This document shows positions 2,251 through 30,910 of a stretch of 64,000 bases of DNA, in pieces. This stretch comes from Squalus acanthias (lineage: Eukaryota). The translations under genes were made by a program, and so were the position numbers. The stretch spans positions 38,318,001-38,382,000 of the forward strand of contig CM059432.1 in NCBI GenBank assembly GCA_030390025.1, written 5' to 3'. Numbering within the stretch: the first letter of the stretch is position 1; every line of letters begins with the position of its first letter. The notes beneath the pieces were generated by a model, which saw nothing but the letters and a program-made list of their open reading frames with translations, was not told where the DNA came from and did not search any database.

Positions 2251-3916
2251 TGTAAGGGTTTCTGAACCTGTGGGATTCGTGTGGCTCTGTGCAGCCTGGA
2301 TGCTAGTGCGGGTTTAGGCCTTGTTGCCTGTTCTGGTCTCCAGCCAGTCTGGGAGCACTAGACACCTGTGAGTGGTTCGACCCACTCGCCCTTACGGTTC
2401 TGACACTGGACTTAGATGCGAGAGCAGTAATGGAGAGAAAACTCAGGTAGACCCGGTTGAATGGTACGAAATGGAAAATCTTTATTGCATATTATTCAAG
2501 ATTACGAAATACATGTCATAAGCACAGATTAATGACAGTACAATCTTACACGCAGTTATGTAACTAATTTCAGGGAAACGAGGAATGAACGACACATCGT
2601 AAATGGGGGCACACATTACAATTATCCTTAAAAAACTTAAACCCTCCCCTATCAATACCTGCTCTAAACTAGACTTGTAGGATCGAGACTCATGCTCACC
2701 ACTCGTGATAACTCGGAGAATTCCGAAAACTCTGATCGGATGTTTTTCACCGCAGCACCTGATCACCCACGTGTTGATCAGGGGTCTCTGTACCCCACTT
2801 GTTTACTCGTTTCTGCTCCGGCTAGCAGGCTGGACCGTCTGCTGTCATGAAGATCTGTGTTGTCCTCGGAGTTCCGACACGACTCGAAAAATAGTCTTCC
2901 TGTGCCCTCACACCGGTTCGATAAAATTCGAAGAATAGTCTTCCGATGCCAGTTCTGTAAAACTCAAAGGTGGTCTTCCTGGGCAAGGAAAGTGTCTATA
3001 CGACCTACAGGCGCGTCCGGAGCTTACTGACCGTGGCGATACGTATGGTCTTCTTCTCTTCTCATCTCATCTCATCTCATCTCATCTCATCTCGGGCCTT
3101 CGGTTCCAACACCGTTTACCGACTTCTCGGGATGGTGCGCCCGTTTCAAGGCTTCACAGCCCGGTTCCACACAGATCTTCGCGGCAAGCCACGAGGCAGA
3201 TCCTGGCGGATCGTAAAGTTCAACAGTCTTTCAAGCTGCAAGAGGCAGAGACACGAGGCAAGCGGCAAGAGGCAGGAGAATAAGAGAAAGATGGACGGTT
3301 GTAGCTTGCAGTTATAGTGCAAAACTCTTCCTTTCCCGCCCAACCTTAATGTCTTTTCTTTTGTTAGGGTTTGGCGCTCAAATTTCTTGTATAGGGTGAT
3401 CTCCGTTTTAATGGGTTTCGGGGATATTCGTAACTGTCTGAGTACCTGTTAATACTTCTCCCATTGTGTAATCGGTCGGTATTCTCCCTGGAGGGGTTTT
3501 GGGGCTTCCAAATGTTCTCTGTAACTACCCGCTAACGGCTCTCTCATCGTAGAGTCGTGGGGATTTTGCATATTAATGTCTTTGGATGGGTTCTTGATCA
3601 CTTGGTACAATAGCCCTTATTCGCACCTGGGAGACCGATTTCAGTATTTATGTGTATACTGCAAACCCATGATGTCTCGTGTATTATCTTAAATGTACTG
3701 AGTCTTGATCGATCTCGCACAAATGTTTATTGGAACGCCATCTTGTCTGCTTGTCGAAAAGTCTAGAATGTTCTGCCACGAGGCGTGGCGGCCATTTTAC
3801 AGGCTGCTTGTGTCCACTTTGAAAACCTGACAGCATTCTGCTGAAATAAAGCTGTTTGAACGAAACTATGTGTTTTCTCCTTATTTATAAAATCGTGATA
3901 TATTGCGAATTCTACA
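2251..3916 (-). repeat. 3' LTR (1666 bp)
   Basis: Copy of 13333-14987; preceded on minus by purine-rich ACAGGAGGGAC. Confidence 0.95.
2481..2486 (-). terminator. Candidate poly(A) signal AATAAA in 3' LTR
   Basis: Plus strand TTTATT, 230 bp from the LTR end; copy at 13557-13562. Confidence 0.55.
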
Positions 3917-3928
3917 GTCCCTCCTGTT
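3917..3928 (-). promoter_or_regulatory. Polypurine tract (short)
   Basis: Minus strand AACAGGAGGGAC immediately before the TG of the 3' LTR. Confidence 0.65.
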
Positions 3929-4371: not shown

Positions 4372-6883
4372 TTACACGGTGCTTTCGTCGTGCACGCGCA
4401 CATAACGTTCTCGCCACTCTCCCGTGTTTTCGTTCTTGGTGAGGCGTTTGCCTCTCTTACAATGTACGACCAATAAGTATACCACAATAAACACTTGGCA
4501 TACAACTAAAATGTGGGAGGCTATTCTAATCCAGGACGGCACTTCAATGTTGGTGAACAGATTCCACCACGGTGGAATTACTATGTCCAGAATGTCTGTC
4601 CCTATTTCGACAGTTTTCTGCTCTAGTGTGTAAAAATGTTTTTGTGACACCGCGACGGCTTTTAAAAGCTTGGTGAGGTGTTCAGGGAGAGGGGGAATGA
4701 GGTATCCGAAATGCGCGACGAATCGCTGCAGGTCGGTGAAGTTCTCTTTTACGGTGAGATGAACCGTGGATGGTTCAGGGATTGGGACAATTTGCTGTTG
4801 TGCTACTTGAACTTCCGCCCTGGGTTTGAAACAGAAACTGCTGTCACTCACCGGACACCGGCTACGGTTTCCATGCCGGTAGTGTTGCGCTGCAGTGGTA
4901 ACACAATATGTTCCACCCCCGATGTATGCTACCTGCGGAGGCACATGATCTTGTGCCATTGCCTCCATGGTGCAATTCATGGACTTGGCGCCAGCCGTTC
5001 TGAACCCGCACTGTGGTGTATAAAAAGGCATTCAAGTGCTGGGGACACAGTATTATGTGTGCTCCCCTGCCACGACAACCAGAGAGATCTGTACCTGTCA
5101 TCGTTTGCTCCCAGCGGATGACGTAGGGTGGAACCGCTGCATAGCGAATGTGGGCTCCCCCCTGAATGACACCAATGTTCTCTACCCGATACACCGGGGC
5201 GGGCTTTGCTGTGTCGCCCAAAACCGGCATACGTAATACTATACCCATGATAGTATGGTTTGATCATCCGCAGTCCACGGGGACTGGGTATGCTTCTGAA
5301 GCTAGCCTGAGCTGGCACGGGCTTAATGCGTTCTGAAAAGGGTGGAGCGCCCGCAGGTGTTTGTTACTTATCCAGGACGGGACCAAACCTTGTTTTAAAT
5401 CCTCCAAATTACTGCGGCCCTCGCCCAGTAACCACGCCCCGTAAAGCACGCACACCTCGTTCTGCGCAGCTTGATCGGATGCATTCCGATCTTCCCTAAT
5501 CAGGGCATTTACCGTTCTCGCGTGTTTCTCTAGTTCAGCTATTATTTCTTTTAAATGGAGAGTCATGGCTTGGTCCTCGTGTAAACCCAACCCAACCACC
5601 TTATTTTCATCTGTGAGAATGTCTTTTAATTGCGTTTTTAAGCCATTAATCTGGGTCTGCAGCTCCACGCTACCTAGAGCATTGACCACAGATGTACCTG
5701 TGTTGAAAGCAGTGAACGCGTCGTTCACAACACCCCTTCTTTGCCTCCCCACCTGATCAAAGACTTCATGTGGTGCGGTGTACAAACTTGTTTTATCAAT
5801 TTCCGCAAAATCGAATTCGTAAAATTGTCTGAACATCTTGGTCAACAGGACCTGATATAACTGTTCCGTCTTTTTGGGGCACCACTCTGGTAACCGTACC
5901 TCGGTGAGATTTAAAATCACCGAGGCCACCGCGTAATGTACCCCCTGAAATAGTATCTGGTCTGTGGGGACCAGTACCAAACCATTCCCGGGTCCCTTAC
6001 TGGTTTTAGGGCACCCTTCTTCCTTAGCTAGGACCACCGGAATCGTGGGCGGGGCTTTGCGTGGGCACGTAATGAGTTCAGTGGCATTTACTGGGATCGG
6101 GGAGAATGGGGCCCCGCACCCCCTGGTACTCGCATCCCACCTCATCCCCTGTCCGTTATCCTGCCATTGATTAATGAAAAATATGGAGATGCCTTTGGGG
6201 CAAACGTACTTTGACCCCCACATACATACATAGATTCCCTCATCCAGTTCCCACCATTTGTCCCAACAGACTCTCACTTGTCCGTTTGTCCCCGTAATTG
6301 TCCGATGGGTATTATTACCCAGTCGTTCCCACTCGACCGAAGAGTTTCTCATGTTCTTGCTCAGCTTTCGCAGCCACCACCATCGGCTCAATGGGACATT
6401 CCCACTACAAGTCAAACAAATCCGTTTGCCGACGGTGACGCTGATCCTGGGTGCGATGATCCTTACTTTGGGGCACAGTAAAGAAGTCTCTTGGTAGGCA
6501 AACCCCGATGTGCTGGAATACTCCGTTGAGTTCGTTCCCAGCCATCCTGGCCACCTTCCCTTGTGGAAATAGGTGGTGGTCTCCTCTGCCTCCCGTCTTC
6601 CGGTCCCATCCACCGCGATGGGGACCGTGTCCCCGGAACATCCGAACACCACGACATCCTTGGTGCGGCCTCGATAGGCCAATCCACATCCGATTGCCGC
6701 GAGCAATACTAGAATTCGTTCCATCCTTCCTTGGTTCCTGTGATCAGATAGAATGAGGTAGCCAGCCTCGCAAGAGTCTCTGGCTTTTGTGAAGGGTGAG
6801 CGGGTCCCCTGACCTCGCCTCACGTAAGCTTCAATGTTCGCTGGATAAACTTTAACTAATCCTATCTCTAAAACTCCCATCAT
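4372..6883 (-). pseudogene. env: Env, class I F-like fusion glycoprotein with N-terminal Ig-like domain; one stop and one frameshift
   Basis: Signal peptide MERILVLLAAIGCGLA from ATG 6724. Furin site RQRR 5735-5746 followed by a fusion-peptide-like stretch and heptad repeat, a Cys-rich region, and a TM helix at ~4460-4535. ORFs 5264-6883 and 4862-5248 are in frame across TGA 5264-5266. Removing one A from 5022-5026 joins ORF 4372-5031, giving ~783 aa from 6724. Confidence 0.88.
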
Positions 6884-7025
6884 TTTACCTCCTTAAACAA
6901 AATTAAAACTATCGACTTAAACCAATTTAAAACTATAACCTCATTCTTAACCTTAAACTATAAACCTAGAAATTTATCCTAAACTTATAAACTGTACAGC
7001 GCCGCCCGTTCCCAGGGCGGCCCCT

Positions 7026-10000
7026 TTAAATTCTGAAAAGGCTGCCGCGAGCTCTTCCCGACGGTGGGAGGGCATTGACCCCTCCCTTTGATCTGCCGCA
7101 GCCTGTTGCTGCTGCGCTGGGACTGGGCTCTTCCTGGGCTGCCTTAACCTTGAGTCTACGCCTTGGGACAGTCTGGGGACTTGACCATACCTTCCTGGGC
7201 TGGGGTATCCGACCTGACCTACGGAGAGTTACCGGGGGCAGGAATCCCAGGACCGACGGACCGGGTTCCGAGACTTCCACCGTGGCGACCTGTGGTCCTA
7301 CCACAGTCGCTGGCTCCGCCTCCCCTGGCTCCGTCTCCCTGACCTCGGGACTTGCAGCTTGTGGCACCGCCCTGCTCGGCCCAGCAGGCGGCCCTTCACT
7401 CGCAGTCCCTACCTCCCCCGAGGGCGGGACGTTCAAGGCGGGCGGCTCGGGCTCTGAGGCTTCCACCATCACGCCCTGTGGTCCCACAGCGGCTGGCTCC
7501 GCCTCCCCTGGCTCCTCCCCCCTGTGTTCGGGACCTGCAGCTTCGGTTTCCACCCTGTGTGGATCTCTATCTGCAGCCCCTGTCCCCCCTATACCTGAAT
7601 CGGGGGCGACCCTTTCGTCCTCCGATTCCAGCTCTTCCTCGTCACTACCTTCACTATCCTCATCTTCGTCGAGCTCCTCGAACTCTCCCTCATCTGACTC
7701 CCAACCCCACAAAAATGTTTCACAATTTTCCAGGATGTCCCCTTCCCTGATGCAAGCTGCTTTGCCTGCCTGTGTGCCCTGTGGTCCTACCTGGGGCTGC
7801 GAGTCCCCACTCGCAGGTTTTGCCCCTGTGGTTTTCCCTTGTGCACCTGGCTTGTACAGTTTGCACTGGTTTACGTGGAACCACTTAGTGCGCCGAGGTA
7901 CCTTTACGGCGTATACCATGGGACTCGCCTTATCTACAATGTTGTAGGGTCCCATATACAGTGGTTCCAGACTCCCTACTCTGGCGCAGTTTCTGACCAT
8001 GACCTGGTCTCCTACTTCCCACTCCCGCGTTTTGCGGGGTTCCAGCAACAGGCGATTGCCCTGATGCTGCCTTCCCATGTTCCCAGCCGCCTGCTCATAC
8101 ACCTGCTTCAGGCGCTCCAAGAGGGTCTCGGCGAACTTGTCCCTGCTTATCTCTTGGAGCTGACCCTCAGTGAGCACCGGCGCTAGCACATGGGTGGGGG
8201 TTCGCATGATCCTCCCAGTCATCACCTCGTGCGGGGAATACCCCGTACTTTTCGACTGACTGGCCCGGACCCCCATGAGGACTAAAGGCAGAACTTCCGC
8301 CCATTTTTGGGGCGAGTTCCTAGTCTCTTTCCTCAATTTCTCCTTCAGGGTCCGGTTCATGCGTTCAACAATCCCGGATGACTGGGGATTGTGTGCTACG
8401 TGCCATTTCCCTTCAATGCCCAAAAGCATGAGGGTGTTCTGCATCACCTGGCCGGTGAAATGACTCCCTTGGTCTGACTCCACAAAACGGGGGAGTCCCC
8501 ACCGCGAGAACACTTCCCTGACCAAGATTTTTGCAGTACCCAGTGCCGTAGCTGTTCGACAGGGGAAGGCTTCCACCCATTTGGAAAACACATCCACCAA
8601 GACGAGGCAGTATTTATAGCCTCCCTGGGTGGTGGGCAGGGGCCCTATATAGTCGATCTGTATCGACTGCCATGGTCCCTCTACCCTCCTGACGTGCCCC
8701 ATGGGCACTTTCCTTTTCTGGGGGTCTGGGTTGTTTGCAGCGCACACGAGACAGCTTGCACAGAACTCGCGGACCTGTTCCCTGAGCCCCGGCCACCATC
8801 CCGCTTGCTCTACCCGTTGCCAGGTAACCTCGGGCCCGGGGTGCCCTGCCCCTGGTCCCTCGTGAGCCAACTGGAGGAATTCCCTCCTGTGCTGCTGCGG
8901 CACAACCCACTGCTCCTCGCGGTACAGCATGCCTTCCTTAACGGAGAGGGTTGCCGTACTGTACGGACCCTCTACCTGCTTCCCCTCAGCAATGGTTTTG
9001 AGGACCGCTTTTAGGGCGGGATCCTGGTTCTGGACGGTCTTAAGGTCTCGGGGCAATGCTACCCTGGTGTTCCCGGGATTCCCGTCCCTGCCTTGGATCG
9101 CTGCCATGGGTCTGGGCCCATAGGGGTCCCAGAAAATGCCGTTGCGGGCACCTTCCCTGGCTAGCGCATCCGCCTGCTGGTTGCCCTCCCCACGGGGCTC
9201 TGTGGAGGAGTGAGCTTTCACCTTATGGATGAAAATCTCTCCTTCCTCCCCTACTGCTGCTAAGATCTTTTCCAGCAAGGGCTTCACCGTTAAAGGTCGC
9301 CCGTCCGCGGAGGTGTATCCACGGCGGGACCAAATGGCCAGGTATTCCGTACACGAATTGCATGTGAACATACTGTCCGAGCAAATCGTGTATGGGGTTG
9401 GGAAAATGTCTGGGTGGGTAACGACGTACACCACTGCAGACAGCTCAGCCTGCTGCGCGCTCATGGTGCTAGGGAGCTTGATCGCCAGGGCAAGGTTTGC
9501 CGCGGGGTCATAAACTCCACACCTTGTGAGTCGTTCGCCAGCAGATACTGTGCTGGAACCATCAACATAAATCTCGCGCCCAGTGGGATGTATCCTGGCC
9601 CGCAAACCTATGTTGACTTCCCACACCCCTTCCACCGAACACCGGTGGGCTGTACCGGGGTATACCAAATTGGCCGCAAGCCTGGGCTCGCAAAGACCTT
9701 TAACTCTAAGATCCATCTGGGAAAGAAGAAGGGTCCAGCGCGCAATACGCGCGCTGCTTACGGTCCCATCTTTAATCCTCCCATCTAGAAGCATCTTAGT
9801 TGGTGTGTGATGGGTGAGAAGAGTGATGGGAGAGAGCCCTGTGAAGATCGCTGATCTTTTCACAGCTCAATGCGTGGCTAAAAGGTGCCTTTCGCAATTG
9901 GAGAAACTTCTCTCCACATCCGTTAACACCCTGGATGAATAGACAACCGGCCTCAGCTTGCCGTGGCGCTCTTGGAGCAGCACAGCGCTCAAGCTGTCCC

Positions 10001-11522
10001 CGCTGGCAGCTACCTCCAGGAAAAACTCCTTCCCCCCATCTATGGCCCCTAAAGCTGGCGCGGTCTGCAGGTCCCTTTTTAACTTCTCGAAGGCTGCTTG
10101 GCAGCCCTCGTCCCAAGACCACTCCACTCCCTTATGGAGGAGTCGGAGCAGCGGCGCCGCTGTGGCCGCATAGTCTTCGATAAAATCCCTGCAGTAACCG
10201 GTCAGTCCCAAGAAGGACCTCACACCCCTTATGGTGTTGGGAATCGGTAACTCTTGCACCGACTCCCTCCTAGCTTTATCTATGGCTCTTTCCCCAGCGC
10301 GAATGGTCAGCCCCAAGAATTTTACTTCCTGCTGACCGATACGTGCTTTCTTAGGGTTTACTTTAAAACCCTTTCTCACTAGCAGCTCCAATAACTCGTC
10401 CAGCAGTGGTCCATGCTCCTCCCTTGAGTCCGTAAATAGGAGCAAATCATCCACGTACTGCACTATCTGATTGGGCTGACTAAACTCCTTTAAACTTCCT
10501 GCCATACACTGATGGAAAATACTGGGGCTATTGTGGAAACCCTGTGGCAGACAGTTCCATGTGTACTGTTGTCCTTTGAAAGTAAAGGCAAACTTGTACT
10601 GGTCCTCTCGCCGCAGCGGGATGGACCAAAAACCGTTCGAGATATCCAGCACCGTGAACGTGGTCGCGGACGCTGGGATACTCCCTATTAGGTCAGCAAC
10701 TGCTGCTACCGTGGGCGCGCAGGCGGGAATGTTACTGTTAAGGACTCTGTAGTCCACCGTGGCCCTCCACGAATTATCTGGCTTCCTAACCGGCCATAAT
10801 GGGGAGTTCACGTGTGTGGCTATCGGCCTCAACACGCCCTGCTGCACCAAGGAGGACATTGCTGTCTCCATATCGGGTTCTGCTTCTTTGGGGAAGTTAT
10901 ACTGCTTTTGGGGCCGGGTCATGGGGTCCCCATCTACGCTGACCTCAAACCCGGTAACCCTCCCACAATCGTGCTTGTGGGTTGCAAACGCGTGCATATT
11001 ATCTGACACGTACGTTTGCATGTCCGTTGGGACATCCGCGACCATAAGCCCGAGGTCGTAGCCTCCGGAAGGCTTCATGGTACACAGGACCCCTGTTTCT
11101 TCCTCCCCCGGAATTACCACTACCTCGCCGTCTTCACTCTTAGCCCCCCAGAGACAGTGATTTCTGAGGTCCACGAGGATCCCGTGCCCTGATAGGAGAT
11201 CGGACCCGAGGATACCTCTCCCACCCCCCTCCTGCCATTCCATCAGTATGCACTTCCACTTGATGTGGAGTGCTCCTAAACGAATGGATAGCGGAAGGGA
11301 GAATGCGCCAGCCTGTTCTTTTCCCGTGAACCCCGCTAATATGAATGGGACCTTGGTGGATAGCGGTGAGTCAAAAGGGCTATCTGTATGAATCACGGTG
11401 CAAGAAGCTCCCGTGTCCAACAAATAACTACCCTTCTGTTTCTCTACCTCCATTTCCACCAGGGGTCGCTTCCACGCATCATAGCTGAGCGGACACAGGT
11501 AGACGGGCTGCGCGGGCTCTTG
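7026..11522 (-). pseudogene. pol: Pol: protease, RT, degenerate RNase H (tether), RNase H, integrase and ~270-aa acidic/Pro-rich tail; one premature stop
   Basis: LLDTGAS and ILGSD (PR); LPQGFHNSP and YVDD (RT); EVAAS...ERHLLA (tether); YVDGS..AEL..SDS..KAH..GNQQAD (RNase H, ~9146-9572); HHCC, DYIGPLP, SDQGSHF, VERMNRTLK, GPY (IN). ORFs 9867-11459 and 7026-9863 share a frame, split by TGA at 9867-9869 (H*AVKR, probably W). Confidence 0.92.
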
Positions 11523-13328
11523 TCATTGGGTACTATTAGACGGGCCTGTGGCACCTACGGGGCCGGTAGCAACCGTCACTTTTCCATGCGCACTCATGAG
11601 GTTACGCATGGCTCCCAACACTGTTTCGATCTCGTCGGGAGGGATGGGTGCACTAGCTTCCCTATCAGAGACAGGCATCTGGGCTCGGGCTGCGGGATTT
11701 TTATCCCTGGAATCCTTCCAAGGGTTCCTGCAGTTCTTGCGCCAGTGCCCTGTCTTCCCACACCCGTAACAAGCATTACTTGCCTGCGGGGTGCGGTTAC
11801 CCTCCTGATGCCACTCCTTCTGAGCCGGGGCTGCGGGTCGTACCTCATGTACTTTTCCCTTAAGGGGACGTGTTCCCATACCCCTGATATTACGGTACCC
11901 TACCGTGAGTCGATTTAGGACCAACTCCTCTGTAGTGGCGGGGTCAGTGGGATCAAACCACGCTTTTGCCTGCTCTCTGACGGCTGGCAAACTGTTGGCT
12001 ACTATACACCTGAGCCAATGAGTTAAACCGATGCCTGCCACAGCGTCGCGCTCTGGTGCACCCGGGCAGCTGCGCTGGTATACTGGCCACAGCCTGTCGG
12101 CGAAAACCTTCGGGGGTTCTCCCTCCATTTGCACTGTCTGTCCCACTCTAACAAACGGACCTTCATCGTCCGTCCCCAGTACTTCTAGGACCTCATTCCT
12201 TAGTGCCTCATAGGTCTTGGTTCCCCTCTTGCTCTCGTCCGAGAGACACTGAAGGATCGAACTACCCAATGAGAATAGCAGCATCTTTGCTGTTTCCCCA
12301 TCGTCGCAGCCGTTAATGGCTGCGGTTTGCTCTATCTCCCTAAAATGTACGGAAGGGTCGTCTGACTCGGCCAGCTTCCGTACGTGACTGATCATAACCC
12401 TCAGCTGGTGTGAGCTGTGAGGCAACACAAGCTGGTTGAGGAGATTCCCTTGTTCCCCATCGTCTCTGTTCGGGCCCCTTTTGATACCCGTGACCGGACA
12501 CAACGGTCCCGGTTCCACTTCTACCTCAGTGGGCTCTTTCGTTTCTTCTACCACTTTCTCCCTTACCCAGGTTTCCGAATAGCTGGGTGGCGCGGAGGGC
12601 GTAGTGGCCAATACTTCCTCTGCTTTGTTCGGTGGGAATTTCTGAAACTCCTCATCCGCTAGCGGCTGGTGTGCTGACGGACTGATAAGGCACACCATGC
12701 CGTGCGCTTTGTTCACGGCCCTTTTAAGGTGCTCTATTTCCTTTTGGCAGACGCTATGATCGGCCCCCTGAAACTTATCCTCAAGGGCCATCTTATATGC
12801 CGCCCTAACCCCCGTTAAGCTCTCTTCCTGGGCTTTTATTTGGGCAGCTTGGCGGGCACATCGTTCCTTTAGTCTGCCCTCACTTAACTTTGCCTCAGTG
12901 ACTTGGCACTCGAGGTAATCTATTTTTGCTTTATGGTGGCTGGTGACTACCTGGCGTTCTTGGTGCAACGCATTTAAATTCTTAATGAGCAACTGCCCCC
13001 CAGTGACCTTCTCGTCCATTTCCACCTCTAAATGCCTGATCCGAGCTGCTTGCGATGTAATGACCTGGTTCGAAATTTGGACTTGTCTTTTATAGCACAT
13101 TAACCAGACCGCTTTCTCCACTGTCTTTTTGTGTTCCTTGCTATCTGTCCACCTCTCGGCTGCCTCTAGTGGACACTTATCCGCTAGCAGGTCACTTATC
13201 CATTTCTTAGTTAAATTTACTTTTCCGAACACATAATCTGCTATTTTCTCTTGCATGACATTTCGTACATTCATACCAAAGTCTAACAAACTACCCTCTC
13301 GCTGCCAGTGTCCTGCCGCGGTCGCCAT
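11523..13328 (-). CDS. gag: Gag, 601 aa (coiled-coil N-terminal half, PSAPPSY late domain, capsid-like region, one CCHC zinc knuckle)
   Basis: Intact ORF right after the 5' LTR. CYGCGKTGHWRKNC at 11730-11771; PSAPPSY at 12579-12599. Confidence 0.9.
   Translation of the reverse strand: MATAAGHWQREGSLLDFGMNVRNVMQEKIADYVFGKVNLTKKWISDLLADKCPLEAAERWTDSKEHKKTVEKAVWLMCYKRQVQISNQVITSQAARIRHLEVEMDEKVTGGQLLIKNLNALHQERQVVTSHHKAKIDYLECQVTEAKLSEGRLKERCARQAAQIKAQEESLTGVRAAYKMALEDKFQGADHSVCQKEIEHLKRAVNKAHGMVCLISPSAHQPLADEEFQKFPPNKAEEVLATTPSAPPSYSETWVREKVVEETKEPTEVEVEPGPLCPVTGIKRGPNRDDGEQGNLLNQLVLPHSSHQLRVMISHVRKLAESDDPSVHFREIEQTAAINGCDDGETAKMLLFSLGSSILQCLSDESKRGTKTYEALRNEVLEVLGTDDEGPFVRVGQTVQMEGEPPKVFADRLWPVYQRSCPGAPERDAVAGIGLTHWLRCIVANSLPAVREQAKAWFDPTDPATTEELVLNRLTVGYRNIRGMGTRPLKGKVHEVRPAAPAQKEWHQEGNRTPQASNACYGCGKTGHWRKNCRNPWKDSRDKNPAARAQMPVSDREASAPIPPDEIETVLGAMRNLMSAHGKVTVATGPVGATGPSNSTQ
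13310..13327 (-). promoter_or_regulatory. Primer binding site, tRNA-Arg(UCG) type
   Basis: Minus strand TGGCGACCGCGGCAGGAC. The plus strand GTCCTGCCGCGGTCGCCA matches, as I recall it, the 3' 18 nt including CCA of vertebrate tRNA-Arg(TCG). Confidence 0.85.
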
Positions 13329-13332
13329 TTTC

Positions 13333-14987
13333 TGTAAGGGTTTCTGGACCTGTGTGGCTTCTGTGCTCAGCCTGGATGCTAGTGCGGGTTTAGGCCTTGT
13401 TGCCTGTTCTGGTCTCCAGCCAGTCTGGGAGCACTAGACACCTGTGGGTGGTTCGACCCACTCACCCTTACGGTTCTGACACTGGACTTAGATGCGAGAG
13501 CAGTAATGGAGAGAAAACTCAGGTAGACCCGGTTGAATGGTACGAAATGGAAAATCTTTATTGCATATTATTCAAGATTACGAAATACATGTCATAAGCA
13601 CAGATTAATGACAGTACAATCTTACACGCAGTTATGTAACTAATTTCAGGGAAACGAGGAATGAACGACACATCGTAAATGGGGGCACACATTACAATTA
13701 TCCTTAAAAAACTTAAACCCTCCCCTATCAATACCTGCTCTAAACTAGACTTGTAGGATCGAGACTCATGCTCACCACTCGTGATAACTCGGAGAATTCC
13801 GAAAACTCTGATCGGATGTTTTTCACCGCAGCACCTGATCACCCACGTGTTGATCAGGGGTCTCTGTACCCCACTTGTTTACTCGTTTCTGCTCCGGCTA
13901 GCAGGCTGGACCGTCTGCTGTCATGAAGATCTGTGTTGTCCTCGGAGTTCCGACACGACTCGAAAAATAGTCTTCCTGTGCCCTCACACCGGTTCGATAA
14001 AATTCGAAGAATAGTCTTCCGATGCCAGTTCTGTAAAACTCAAAGAAGGTCTTCCTGGGCAAGGAAAGTGTCTATACGACCTACAGGCGCGGTCGGAGCT
14101 TACTGACCGTGGCGATACGTATGGTCTTCTTCTCTTCTCATCTCATCTCATCTCATCTCATCTCGGGCCTTCGGTTCCAACATTGTTTACCGACTTCTCG
14201 GGATGGTGCGCCCGTTTCAAGGCTTCACAGCCCGGTTCCACACAGATCTTCGCGGCAAGCCACGAGGCAGATCCTGGCGGATCGTAAAGTTCAACAGTCT
14301 TTCAAGCTGCAAGAGGCAGAGACACGAGGCAAGCGGCAAGAGGCAGGAGAATAAGAGAAAGATGGACGGTTGTAGCTTGCAGTTATAGTGCAAAACTCTT
14401 CCTTTCCCGCCCAACCTTAATGTCTTTTCTTTTGTTAGGGTTTGGCGCTCAAATTTCTTGTATAGGGTGATCTCCGTTTTAATGGGTTTCGGGGATACTC
14501 GTAACTGTCTGAGTACCTGTTAATACTTCTCCCATTGTGTAATCAGTCGGTATTCTCCCTGGAGGGGTTTTGGGGCTTCCAAATGTTCTCTGTAACTACC
14601 CGCTAACGGCTCTCTCATCGTAGAGTCGTGGGGATTTTGCATATTAATGTCTTTGGATGGGTTCTTGATCACTTGGTACAATAGCCCTTATTCGCACCTG
14701 GGAGACCGATTTCAGTATTTATGTGTATACTGCAAACCCATGATGTCGCGTGTATTATCTTAAATGTACTGAGTCTTGATCGATCTCGCACAAATGTTTA
14801 TTGGAACGCCATCTTGTCTGCTTGTCGAAAAGTCTAGAATGTTCTGCCACGAGGCGTGGCGGCCATTTTACAGGCTGCTTGTGTCCACTTTGAAAACCTG
14901 ACAGCATTCTGCTGAAATAAAGCTGTTTGAACGAAACTATGTGTTTTCTCCTTATTTATAAAATCGTGATATATTGCGAATTCTACA
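13333..14987 (-). repeat. 5' LTR (1655 bp)
   Basis: About 99% identical by eye to 2251-3916; reads TGTAGAA...CCTTACA on minus; followed 5 nt later by the PBS. Confidence 0.95.
14382..14412 (-). promoter_or_regulatory. Candidate LTR promoter: GC box GGGCGG plus TATAAC
   Basis: Minus strand GGGCGG (14407-14412) about 20 nt upstream of TATAAC (14382-14387); same in 3' LTR at 3311-3341. Confidence 0.5.
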
Positions 14988-15304
14988 CCTCCCATCCCTG
15001 CCTCTGTATTTGCTTAAAATCTGTTATATCTCTAACTTTTTCCAGTTCTGTCGAAAAGTCATTGACCTGAAACGTTAACTCTGTTTCTCTCTCCACAGAT
15101 GCTGCCTGGCCTGCTGAGTATTTGCAGCATTTCTGTTTCTTATCAACAATAAAAGTATTTATTTGTTTTCTGCATTAGATGTTGGATTTGCACTAGACAC
15201 CCATATCAGTCCCACCAGACTATGATATACTAAAGCCCCCAAACAGGTTTATTCACAGATAAAGTAATTCACATAAATAACAAAAAAGCTTGCATTTATA
15301 TAGA

Positions 15305-29189: not shown

Positions 29190-30910
29190 TTTAATACATA
29201 CTTTGGTTCTGTCTTCACAAAGGAGGACACAAATAACCTCCCAGAGATGTCGGGGAACATAGGGTCTAATGAGAGGGAGGAACCGAATGAAATCAGTATT
29301 TGTAGGGAAATGGTGTTAGGGAAATTGACGGGATTGAAGGCCAATAAATCCCCAGGGCCTGATAATCTACATCCAAGGGTACTTAAGGAAGTGGCCCTAG
29401 AAATAGTAGATGCATTGCTGGTCATCTTCCAAAATTCTATAGACTCGGGCACAGTTCCTATGGATTGGAGGGTAGCTAATGTAACCCCACTATTTAAAAA
29501 AGGTGGGAGAGAGAAAACGGGGAATTATAGACCGGTAAGCCTGACATCGGTAGTGGGGAAAATGCTAGAGTCCATTATAAAAGATGTAATAGCAGAGCAC
29601 TTGGAAAACAGTGACAGGATCGGACAAAGTCAACATGGATTTACAAAAGGTAAATCGTGCTTGTCTAATCTACTGGAATTTTTTGAGGATGTAACTGGTA
29701 GAATAGTTAAGGGAGAACCAGTGGATGTGGTGTATTTGGACTTTCAGAAGGCTTTCGATAAGGTCCCGCATAAGAGATAAGCGTGCAAAGTTAAAGCACA
29801 TGGGATTGGGGGTAAGGTACTGACTTGGATAGAGAACAAGTTGGCAGACAGGAAGCAAAGAGTTGGAATAAACGGGTTTTTTTCCGAGTGGCAGGCAGTG
29901 ACTAGTGGGGCACCGCAGGGATCGGTGCTAGGACCCCAGCTATTCACAATATATATTAATGATCTAGACGAGGGAACTGGATGTAATATCTCCAAGTTTG
30001 CAGACGACACAAAGCTGGGTGGGTATGTGTGCTGTGAGGAGGATGCAGAGAAACTCCAGTATGATTTGGACAGGTTGGGTGATTGGGCAGATGCATGGCA
30101 GGTGCAATATAATGTGGATAAATGCGAGGTTATCCACTTTGGTGGCAAAAACAGGAAGGCAGATTATTATCTGAACGGCAATAGATTGGGAGAAGGGGAA
30201 GTGCAACGAGACCTGGGTGTCCTTGTGCACCATTCACTGAAGGTAAGCATGCAGGTGCAGCAGGCGGTTAAGAAGGCAAATGGTATGTTGGCCTTCATAG
30301 CGAGAGGATTCGAGTACAGGAGCAAGGATGTCTTGCTGCAGTTGTACAGGGCCTTGGTGAGACCACACCTTGAGTATTGTGTGCAGTTTTGGTCGCCTTA
30401 TCTGAGGAGGGAGTGTAGCGAAGATTCACCAGACTGATACCTGGGATGGCAGGAATGACGTATGAGGAGAGATTGGGTTGATTGTGCTTATATTCGCTGG
30501 AGTTTAAAAGAATGAGAGGGGATCTCATTGAAACTTATAAAGTTCTAACAGGACTAGACAGACTAGATGCAGGAAGGATGTTCCTGATGGTGCGGGAGTC
30601 CAGAACCAGGGGTCACAGTCTAAGGATAAGGGGTAAGCCATTTAGGACTGAGATGAGGAGGAATTTCTTCACCCAGAGAGTGGTGAACCTGTGGAATTCT
30701 CTACCACAGAAGGCAGTTGAGGCCAATTCATTAAATATAATCAAGAAGGAGTTAGATATATTTCTTAAGGCTAAAGGAATCAAGGGATATGGGGAGAAAG
30801 CAGGACAGGGTACTGAATTTGGATGATCAGCCATGATTTCATTAAATGGCGGAACAGGCTCGAGGGGCTGAATGGCCTACTCCTGCTCCTATCTTCTATG
30901 CTTCTATGTT
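29190..30910 (+). mobile_element. 5'-truncated CR1 LINE (RT)
   Basis: [53 protein letters not shown] tail. Confidence 0.92.

What the first reader, a model, noticed from the sequence alone, without database searches (positions are those of the whole stretch)
13310..13332. Gag start codon overlaps the primer binding site
Seen on minus: LTR..CA|GAAAA|TGGCGACCGCGGCAGGAC. The last spacer A plus the PBS TG forms the first AUG (context AAAATGG), so the PBS encodes M-A-T-A-A-G. There is no leader between PBS and gag. Known: retroviruses usually keep the packaging signal in that leader. Inference: tRNA annealing and Gag initiation would exclude each other, a possible translate-versus-package switch, and psi must lie in R/U5 or inside gag. 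The 5-nt LTR-PBS spacer is also long.
Basis: partly seen in the sequence, partly recalled or inferred. Interest (0 to 1): 0.72.

Follow-up and report, generated by a model that had tools for sequence, protein, structure and literature searches.

The report
Retrovirus start codon inside primer site
In a snakehead-retrovirus-like endogenous virus whose closest relatives are in sharks and skates, the capsid gene appears to begin on the very letters where the host tRNA primer binds, so the host tRNA spells the first six amino acids and a bound primer would cover the start codon.

Summary
Observation confirmed. The 5' LTR ends at 13333 (4-bp target duplication). A 5-nt spacer precedes an 18-nt PBS that exactly complements a tRNA-Arg(UCG) 3' end. 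Spacer A plus PBS TG is the first in-frame ATG of a 601-codon gag. The element is a young, defective ERV nearest snakehead retrovirus, which itself keeps a 234-nt PBS-gag leader.

The overlap looks conserved: 10 of 12 related predicted Gags that reach residue 25 (skate, catshark, unnamed; 31-57% identical) carry MAT-x-x-G exactly 24 residues before a second conserved Met. None of 37 reference retroviruses with a located PBS has A before it.

Against: these are gene predictions. Met25 is equally conserved and would leave an ordinary 53-nt leader. Residues 7-24 are poorly conserved between lineages. No initiation data exist.

'No leader' is overstated: R/U5 is the leader (at least ~210 nt, perhaps ~1 kb). 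A primer-driven switch is untested. Published data put annealing at assembly, so a passive lock is likelier. Psi inside gag is known (HTLV/BLV, Ty1). The scan noted this overlap before in the same genome (e1-7806816).

The parts
13333..14987 (-). 5' LTR, 1655 nt, TG...CA
   Evidence: 98.4% identical to the 3' LTR
14988..14991 (-). target-site duplication GAGG (left copy; right copy 2247-2250)
14383..14412 (-). GC box plus TATA-like site; candidate promoter (alternative TATAAA at 14960). Start site not shown
   Evidence: motif match only
13557..13562 (-). AATAAA; candidate poly(A) signal, implying a U5 of about 200 nt
   Evidence: inference
13460..13468 (-). best splice-donor-like site near the 5' end (AGG|GTGAGT); lies in U5, upstream of the PBS
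   Evidence: 5 of 6 consensus positions, the best in 13560-12700; use not shown
13334..13471 (-). predicted U5 domain closed by an 8-bp helix (13471-13464 with 13341-13334); candidate packaging or leader structure
   Evidence: pair probabilities of sampled positions 0.91-1.00 in 4 of 4 folding windows; z -2.24; no covariation test
13328..13332 (-). 5-nt LTR-PBS spacer GAAAA; supplies the -3 A and the A of AUG1
   Evidence: predicted single-stranded
13310..13327 (-). 18-nt primer binding site for tRNA-Arg(UCG); also gag codons 1-7
13326..13328 (-). AUG1, putative Gag start
   Evidence: conserved in 10 of 12 related predicted Gags
13259..13274 (-). in-frame Met19 (not conserved) and two out-of-frame AUGs (13270, 13261) between AUG1 and Met25
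13254..13256 (-). Met25, conserved second in-frame AUG, 53 nt after the PBS; rival start
13226..13301 (-). predicted long hairpin in gag covering Met19 and Met25; candidate psi element
   Evidence: z -2.60 alone, but z -0.77 in a wider window; window-dependent
11523..13328 (-). gag, intact, 601 aa: helical N-terminus, long coiled coil, capsid-like helices, one CCHC knuckle; ends in TGA in frame with pol
9867..11522 (-). pro-RT-tether; ends at an in-frame premature TGA
7026..9866 (-). RNase H, integrase and long acidic C-terminal tail
4372..6892 (-). env-like region in three pieces (an in-frame stop and a frameshift); hydrophobic signal-like stretch, RQRR site, C-terminal hydrophobic stretch
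   Evidence: read by eye; no Pfam hit, no Atlas hit
3917..3925 (-). short polypurine tract abutting the 3' LTR
2251..3916 (-). 3' LTR

Best explanation
A snakehead-retrovirus-like ERV family of cartilaginous fishes has no untranslated stretch between PBS and gag. Gag starts at AUG1, formed by the last spacer base and the UG that every PBS inherits from the tRNA's CCA end (sequence shown; use inferred). Because the PBS is recopied from the primer in each replication cycle (established knowledge), the tRNA isodecoder fixes Gag residues 2-6 (MATAAG here, MATTKG in skate). The functions of the usual post-PBS leader are displaced: leader and splice donor into R/U5, packaging signals into U5 and/or the first gag codons (inferred). 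Free tRNA does not anneal unaided. Once Gag/NC places the primer on an RNA already being packaged, the duplex hides the AUG. The overlap then acts as a late, passive lock on re-initiation, not as the trigger that chooses between translation and packaging.
For: 10 of 12 related predicted Gags that reach residue 25 carry MAT[AT]xG with a Met exactly 24 residues later and no stop or indel between, at 31-57% identity to the window Gag. Residue 7 is H, P or L in all of them, as expected for a codon opened by the PBS's last C. The skate start MATTKG is what another tRNA-Arg(UCG) 3' end would encode (30 matches in Arg(UCG) loci). The base before the PBS is never A in 37 reference retroviruses (30 T, 6 G, 1 C). 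One relative reads L-H-M across the junction, against L-Q-K-M here; this suggests a 2-nt spacer that still ends in A (inferred from protein only). Among six catshark-type copies residues 7-24 are as conserved as residues 26-125 (0.72 vs 0.72). A scanning ribosome would have to pass AUG1, Met19 and two out-of-frame AUGs to reach Met25. The best donor-like site lies upstream of the PBS. The model's first helix starts at residue 14, before Met25. Annealing needs Gag/NC and is placed at assembly (PMC11181671 passages).
Against: All relatives are gene predictions, which favour the first ATG, and their DNA was not seen. P0004 (skate) is annotated from Met25 and P0002 starts 10 codons downstream. Between lineages residues 7-24 are only 6-28% identical against 28-59% downstream, with non-conservative differences (mean BLOSUM -1.2). 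The within-lineage BLOSUM test did not separate coding from neutral change (-0.32 vs -0.20 downstream vs about -0.5 neutral). An RNA constraint could explain the fixed length. Residues 1-14 are low-confidence and 11-20 average pLDDT 52. The 37 reference viruses fall in a few related groups and are not independent. The AUG-free stretch of U5 is not significant (P 0.21 dinucleotide, 0.047 mononucleotide shuffles). If transcription starts near 14357, 13 upstream AUGs precede AUG1, so simple scanning is itself uncertain. More distant Gags (P0017, P0021, P0022, P0024, P0032; 18-20% identity in A4) show no such start.
Confidence: 0.55

Rival explanations
1. Met25 is the main (or co-equal) start, 53 nt after the PBS, as in foamy and deltaretroviruses. 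AUG1 gives a minor N-terminally extended Gag by leaky scanning, and codons 7-24 are kept mainly as an RNA element.
For: Met25 is present in all 12 relatives that reach it. PBS-to-gag gaps of 20-96 nt occur in 24 reference loci (group labels recalled from Gag N-termini and the tree). Cross-lineage conservation rises sharply after residue 25. A hairpin covers this stretch (z -2.60). One skate copy is annotated from Met25.
Against: Met25 has a weaker context (-3 G, +4 C) and sits behind three other AUGs as well as AUG1. A non-coding 53-nt spacer would not be expected to stay stop-free and in frame in every lineage seen (0.42 per random 18 codons). The hairpin's significance vanishes in a wider window (z -0.77).
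Confidence: 0.22
2. An active switch. Gag-assisted annealing of tRNA-Arg, or host 3' tRNA fragments, occurs on cytoplasmic genomic RNA, blocks 43S recognition of AUG1, and so diverts the RNA to packaging or silences it. This would be a Gag-dose feedback loop.
For: The duplex would cover the UG of the start codon. PMC11181671 passages note that MLV NC could anneal primer in the cytosol and that primer annealing promotes HIV-1 dimers in vitro. 22-nt 3'-tRFs that target the PBS lower ERV RNA and protein (PMC7472051 passages). HBV polymerase binding to epsilon, which contains the core AUG, represses translation (recalled; only a search listing was seen).
Against: No expression, annealing or translation data exist for this family. 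In HIV-1 the PBS segment was dispensable for packaging in cells and conformer-locking did not alter Gag synthesis. Compaction alone explains the layout.
Confidence: 0.18
3. Chance plus annotation bias. Any A before a PBS makes AUGG, and gene callers extend ORFs to it.
For: +4 G is forced by CCA. One chance in three for frame and about 0.42 for no stop are not small for a single element. Only predicted proteins were seen.
Against: The same register recurs in the window, skate and catshark-type lineages down to 31% identity, apparently with different spacer lengths and tRNA isodecoders. 0 of 37 reference viruses have this A.
Confidence: 0.05

Closest known systems
Snakehead retrovirus (SnRV) and clade Huo ERVs (locus L191, 10,688 nt, the length given for SnRV in PMC12193657)
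   Same: Best RT match (45% over 220 aa); sister in two trees (97/88 and 97/93). Gag profile match over 399 columns, E 1.2e-12. Arg-type PBS (isoacceptor recalled), gag and pol in one frame across a stop, coiled-coil Gag starting MA, LTR ending TTACA. SnRV-like ERVs are known from elephant shark (PMC4422223 passages).
   Different: L191 has a 1-nt spacer, a different PBS sequence, and 234 nt between PBS and gag ATG that hold a short hydrophobic ORF and a donor-like site. Here gag starts in the PBS and the donor-like site is in U5. Env shows no tblastn similarity.
Yeast Ty1
   Same: PBS and packaging region lie inside GAG coding sequence (PBS at nt 95-104 after a 53-nt 5' UTR; PMC5454406 passages).
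   Different: The Ty1 AUG is about 40 nt upstream of the PBS and is not covered by the primer; Ty1 is a copia-type element with a 10-nt PBS.
Deltaretroviruses (HTLV/BLV) and foamy viruses
   Same: Very short PBS-to-gag gaps (20-77 nt in 8 loci; 59-96 nt in 16 loci). HTLV-1/BLV packaging stem-loops lie in gag (PMC9142903 passages). A donor upstream of the PBS is typical of foamy viruses and predicted for XtERV-S (PMC8278194 passages).
   Different: Their gag AUG is always downstream of the PBS and the base before the PBS is never A.
HIV-1 U5:AUG pairing; HBV epsilon
   Same: A start codon is occluded by a replication or packaging element (HIV; HBV: recalled).
   Different: There the AUG is hidden by intramolecular structure or a protein; here it would be hidden by a host tRNA in trans.

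Membership tests
Retroviridae (endogenous) | two LTRs with TG...CA ends, target-site duplication, PBS, PPT | tested here: met
Retroviridae (endogenous) | gag-pro-RT-tether-RNase H-IN order (dual RNase H) followed by env | tested here: met
   Pfam order; env assigned by position and hydrophobic pattern only
SnRV-like ERVs (clade Huo, PMC6001957) | RT groups with snakehead retrovirus | tested here: inconclusive
   97/88 and 97/93 support, but both branches are long and the trees lack lokiretrovirus, ERV-L and fish ERV rows; the AU test did not run
SnRV-like ERVs (clade Huo, PMC6001957) | Gag homologous to SnRV Gag (coiled coil, CA, CCHC) | tested here: met
   E 1.2e-12 over 399 columns; controls: foamy Gag E 0.33, epsilon-type Gag only the knuckle. 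With the 3-row profile the match was weak (E 2.7e-4)
SnRV-like ERVs (clade Huo, PMC6001957) | arginine tRNA PBS; gag-pol in one frame across a stop | tested here: met
   that SnRV's PBS is for an Arg tRNA is recalled
Snakehead retrovirus itself | untranslated or leader-peptide region with donor between PBS and gag | tested here: not met
   234 nt in L191 vs none here
Lokiretroviruses | Env with detectable similarity to Mononegavirales F (PF00523) | tested here: inconclusive
   no Pfam hit in three env pieces scanned separately; the gene is broken, so sensitivity is reduced
Lokiretroviruses | RT groups with Loki clade | not testable with these tools
   no Loki sequence was held as a locus; PMC7947760 reports 0 of 5 Chondrichthyes genomes positive (supplement passage)
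Spumaretrovirinae | Gag without Cys-His knuckle; Pol from its own start in another frame | tested here: not met
   CCHC present (E 0.0035); pol follows gag in frame; no Gag profile match
Translate-versus-package switches (HIV U5:AUG, HBV epsilon) | occlusion of the AUG changes translation and packaging in cells | not testable with these tools
   needs reporter and ribosome data

The most novel reading that the evidence does not exclude
A vertebrate retrovirus lineage in which the host primer tRNA both templates the Gag N-terminus and gates its translation. Gag-chaperoned annealing of tRNA-Arg, or host 3' tRNA fragments, covers the start codon on cytoplasmic RNA. Primer loading then becomes the step that withdraws genomes from ribosomes, and a host small RNA gains a direct block on initiation.
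Probability: 0.18. Interest if true: 0.78.

Novelty: new variant of a known kind. Interest (0 to 1): 0.54.

Why it matters
If AUG1 is the start, this family is a natural case of a retroviral PBS that is also protein code. A change of primer isodecoder rewrites Gag residues 4-5, and the tRNA-Arg sequence excludes the Gly2 myristoylation signal. The leader functions that orthoretroviruses keep between PBS and gag must work from R/U5 or from coding sequence. It also offers a clean system for a long-debated question: whether primer placement or 3' tRNA fragments can decide between translating and packaging a retroviral RNA. Here the primer footprint and the start codon coincide.

Tried and rejected
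No host genome is held, so copy counts, DNA alignments, dN/dS and host tRNA genes could not be obtained.

Searches that found nothing:
- Gag relatives at DNA level: none in viral contigs or genome contigs.
- Single-sequence RT scan: none.
- 24 viral contigs with an Arg-PBS-like match had no tblastn hit to gag, pol or env.
- Rfam: nothing near a gathering score in 12800-15100.
- Env: no Pfam hit and no Atlas hit.
- Earlier-findings look-ups by sequence, relatives and a second wording were empty.

Sequencing runs: no RNA holder is on record. The four runs laid are contigs. They show a diverse multi-copy family in three coded organisms but no start site, and no splice joint among the 15 of 88 joints shown. 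No variant row at the spacer or PBS was among the 40 rows shown of about 1,220.

Weak or rejected tests:
- The AUG-free U5 is not significant.
- The BLOSUM test on codons 7-24 did not discriminate.
- A U5:AUG pairing seen in the 251-nt fold disappeared in 3 larger windows, so it was rejected as an edge effect.
- Lokiretrovirus and foamy-virus readings were considered and are disfavoured (membership table).
- An LTR end 2 nt further out (the LTR alignment runs on through GA) was rejected because only the CA end gives the 4-bp duplication.

Literature: no paper describing a gag start codon formed by the PBS turned up in searches (search 63 was swamped by other meanings of PBS). The library lacks most subscription papers and Repbase annotations, so this is not proof of absence. 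Only matched passages of the Loki supplement were seen.

Full report
The element. The finding lies at the 5' end of a 12.7-kb provirus on the minus strand. The 5' LTR is 14987-13333 and the 3' LTR is 3916-2251; they are 98.4% identical and are flanked by a GAGG duplication. Gag (13328-11523, 601 aa, CCHC knuckle) ends in TGA in frame with protease, RT, a tether domain, a second RNase H and integrase. Pol carries one premature stop, and the env-like region is in three pieces, so this copy is young but defective. No host genome is held. The named relatives are from a skate (Rhinoraja longicauda), a catshark (Scyliorhinus torazame), horn shark and whale shark. Contigs of four runs from three coded organisms show a diverse multi-copy family.

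After the LTR's terminal CA come GAAAA (13332-13328) and the 18-nt PBS (13327-13310). The last A and the PBS's TG form ATG at 13328, the first in-frame ATG of an ORF that is open from 13433. Among 126 metagenome loci from a capped scan, the exact complement of the PBS occurred 7 times, 5 of them at the 3' end of ARAGORN tRNA-Arg(UCG) genes. These are not the host's genes. The spacer is long: in 37 of 42 reference viral loci with a located PBS it is 1-3 nt, and a review gives 2-4 nt for ERVs (PMC7472051, passages). Two qualifications apply. The +4 G comes free with the tRNA's CCA. And the RNA has a leader: about 210 nt of U5 by the poly(A) signal at 13562, and perhaps about 1 kb with 13 upstream AUGs if the TATA-like site at 14387 is the promoter (inferred, start site not shown).

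Conservation. Twelve related predicted Gags reach residue 25. Ten carry MAT[AT]xG: MATTKG in three skate proteins (53-57% identical where full length) and MATAAG, MATAVG or MATATG in seven catshark-type proteins (31-34% in alignment A4). One of the ten (P0037) is annotated with a further upstream extension. In all ten, and in the window, a second Met follows exactly 24 residues later, and residue 7 is H, P or L, as a codon beginning with the PBS's last C predicts (P0042). MATTKG is what another tRNA 3' end encodes: 30 of its 76 matches were in Arg(UCG) loci, and many of the rest in bacterial-type tRNA-Asp loci. The two exceptions start later: P0004 at Met25 and P0002 ten codons in; their upstream DNA was not seen. 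P0037 reads L-H-M across the junction where the window reads L-Q-K-M, which suggests a canonical 2-nt spacer that still ends in A, so the A and the frame, not the 5-nt length, are the shared feature (inference from protein). In contrast, none of the 37 reference retroviruses has A before the PBS, although they represent only a few groups.

Which Met starts Gag? Met25 is. Starting there would leave a 53-nt gap, inside the 20-96 nt range of 24 delta- and foamy-type loci (group labels recalled). For AUG1: a better context, two out-of-frame AUGs and Met19 ahead of Met25, no stop or indel in codons 7-24 in any lineage, identity of 0.72 in codons 7-24 versus 0.72 downstream among six catshark-type copies, and a predicted first helix from residue 14. 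Against: only 6-28% identity of residues 7-24 between lineages, a non-discriminating BLOSUM test, low model confidence over residues 1-20, a hairpin over this stretch that could impose an RNA constraint (z -2.60, but -0.77 in a wider window), and the bias of gene callers toward the first ATG. I put AUG1 as a real and main start at about 0.7.

Consequences for layout. With no room after the PBS, the best donor-like site is in U5 at 13468-13460, as in foamy viruses and as predicted for XtERV-S (PMC8278194, passages); spliced RNAs would lack both PBS and AUG1. An 8-bp helix closing a 138-nt U5 domain is stable in four folding windows (z -2.24). It and the gag hairpin are candidate packaging elements, untested by covariation. 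Packaging signals in gag are known for HTLV-1/BLV (PMC9142903, passages), and Ty1 has both PBS and packaging region inside GAG (PMC5454406, passages).

The switch. An annealed primer would cover the UG and the next 16 nt in an 18-bp duplex, so mutual exclusion is near certain if AUG1 is used. Whether it decides anything is a different matter. PMC11181671 (passages) reports that annealing needs Gag/NC and is largely placed at assembly, that HIV-1 packaging was unaffected by deleting the PBS segment, and that locking HIV-1 leader conformers left Gag synthesis unchanged; it also allows cytosolic annealing for MLV. The likelier reading is a late, passive lock (0.55). An active switch through primer or 3'-tRF binding (PMC7472051, passages; PMC12853362, passages, which did not mention start-codon overlap) stays possible (0.18).

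Classification. The closest RT is locus L191, 10,688 nt, the length given for snakehead retrovirus (PMC12193657, passages): 45% identity, and sister in two trees with 97/88 and 97/93 support, though on long branches and without Loki or ERV-L rows. The family's Gag profile matches L191 Gag over 399 columns (E 1.2e-12), but not foamy Gag, and matches epsilon-type Gag only at the knuckle. SnRV-related ERVs form clade Huo (PMC6001957, passages) and occur in elephant shark (PMC4422223, passages). L191 itself has a 1-nt spacer and 234 nt between PBS and gag, and its gag start reads GAAATGGC, close to the window's GAAAATGGC. Loss of the leader by fusing the PBS's TGGC with the start's ATGGC is therefore a plausible origin, but it is speculation. 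Lokiretroviruses (PMC7947760: abstract, introduction, first results and supplement passages) are disfavoured but not excluded. PMC5512871, PMC5210030, PMC12440569, PMC9040795 and bioRxiv 10.1101/2024.03.25.586437 were checked by term search only and did not mention this overlap in the passages shown. Hart et al. 1996 on SnRV was not read.

Novelty. Eight literature searches found no description of a gag AUG formed by the PBS; the library is incomplete. Verdict: a real, apparently conserved and unusual variant of retroviral leader design, with precedents for each part (Ty1, deltaretroviruses, foamy viruses) and an untested switch.

Noticed in passing
window 14165-14139 (minus), in the LTR: A (GAGAT)n array makes five tandem AUG-AGA-UGA mini-ORFs (ATGs at 14161-14141); the 3' LTR has one more unit. 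If R starts near 14357 these sit in the leader.
   Followed up: partly
window 13464 vs 2388: The donor-like GT in the 5' LTR reads GC in the 3' LTR; the same base closes the predicted U5 helix.
   Followed up: no
window 13392 to 12762: Contigs of two RNA-guessed runs (X8, X9) jump back 631 nt across PBS and early gag at a 4-nt microhomology; no such joint in the two DNA runs among rows shown. Tandem duplication or template switch, not a canonical splice.
   Followed up: no
window 7543-7445 and 7360-7262: Pol ends in a long acidic, proline-rich tail with an internal 99-nt duplication (81% identical).
   Followed up: no
L191:328-345: The snakehead-type gag start (GAAATGGC; MASNKWF) resembles the window's spacer plus PBS, and an aromatic W-F pair follows as in some catshark-type N-termini; a hint that the leader was lost by fusion at TGGC.
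   Followed up: partly
window 14802 and 14960: A second AATAAA and a perfect TATAAA lie near the 5' edge of the LTR; either would change the U3/R/U5 map.
   Followed up: no
window 6892-4372: The env-like region has a furin-type RQRR site followed by a fusion-peptide-like stretch and long heptad pattern, by eye more like F-type fusogens than gamma-type TM; no database hit.
   Followed up: partly
window 46625-45621, 40747-40064, 29781-30434, 16360-15650: Fragments of non-LTR-type reverse transcriptases and one GIY-YIG endonuclease (Penelope-like, by recall) in the flanks.
   Followed up: no
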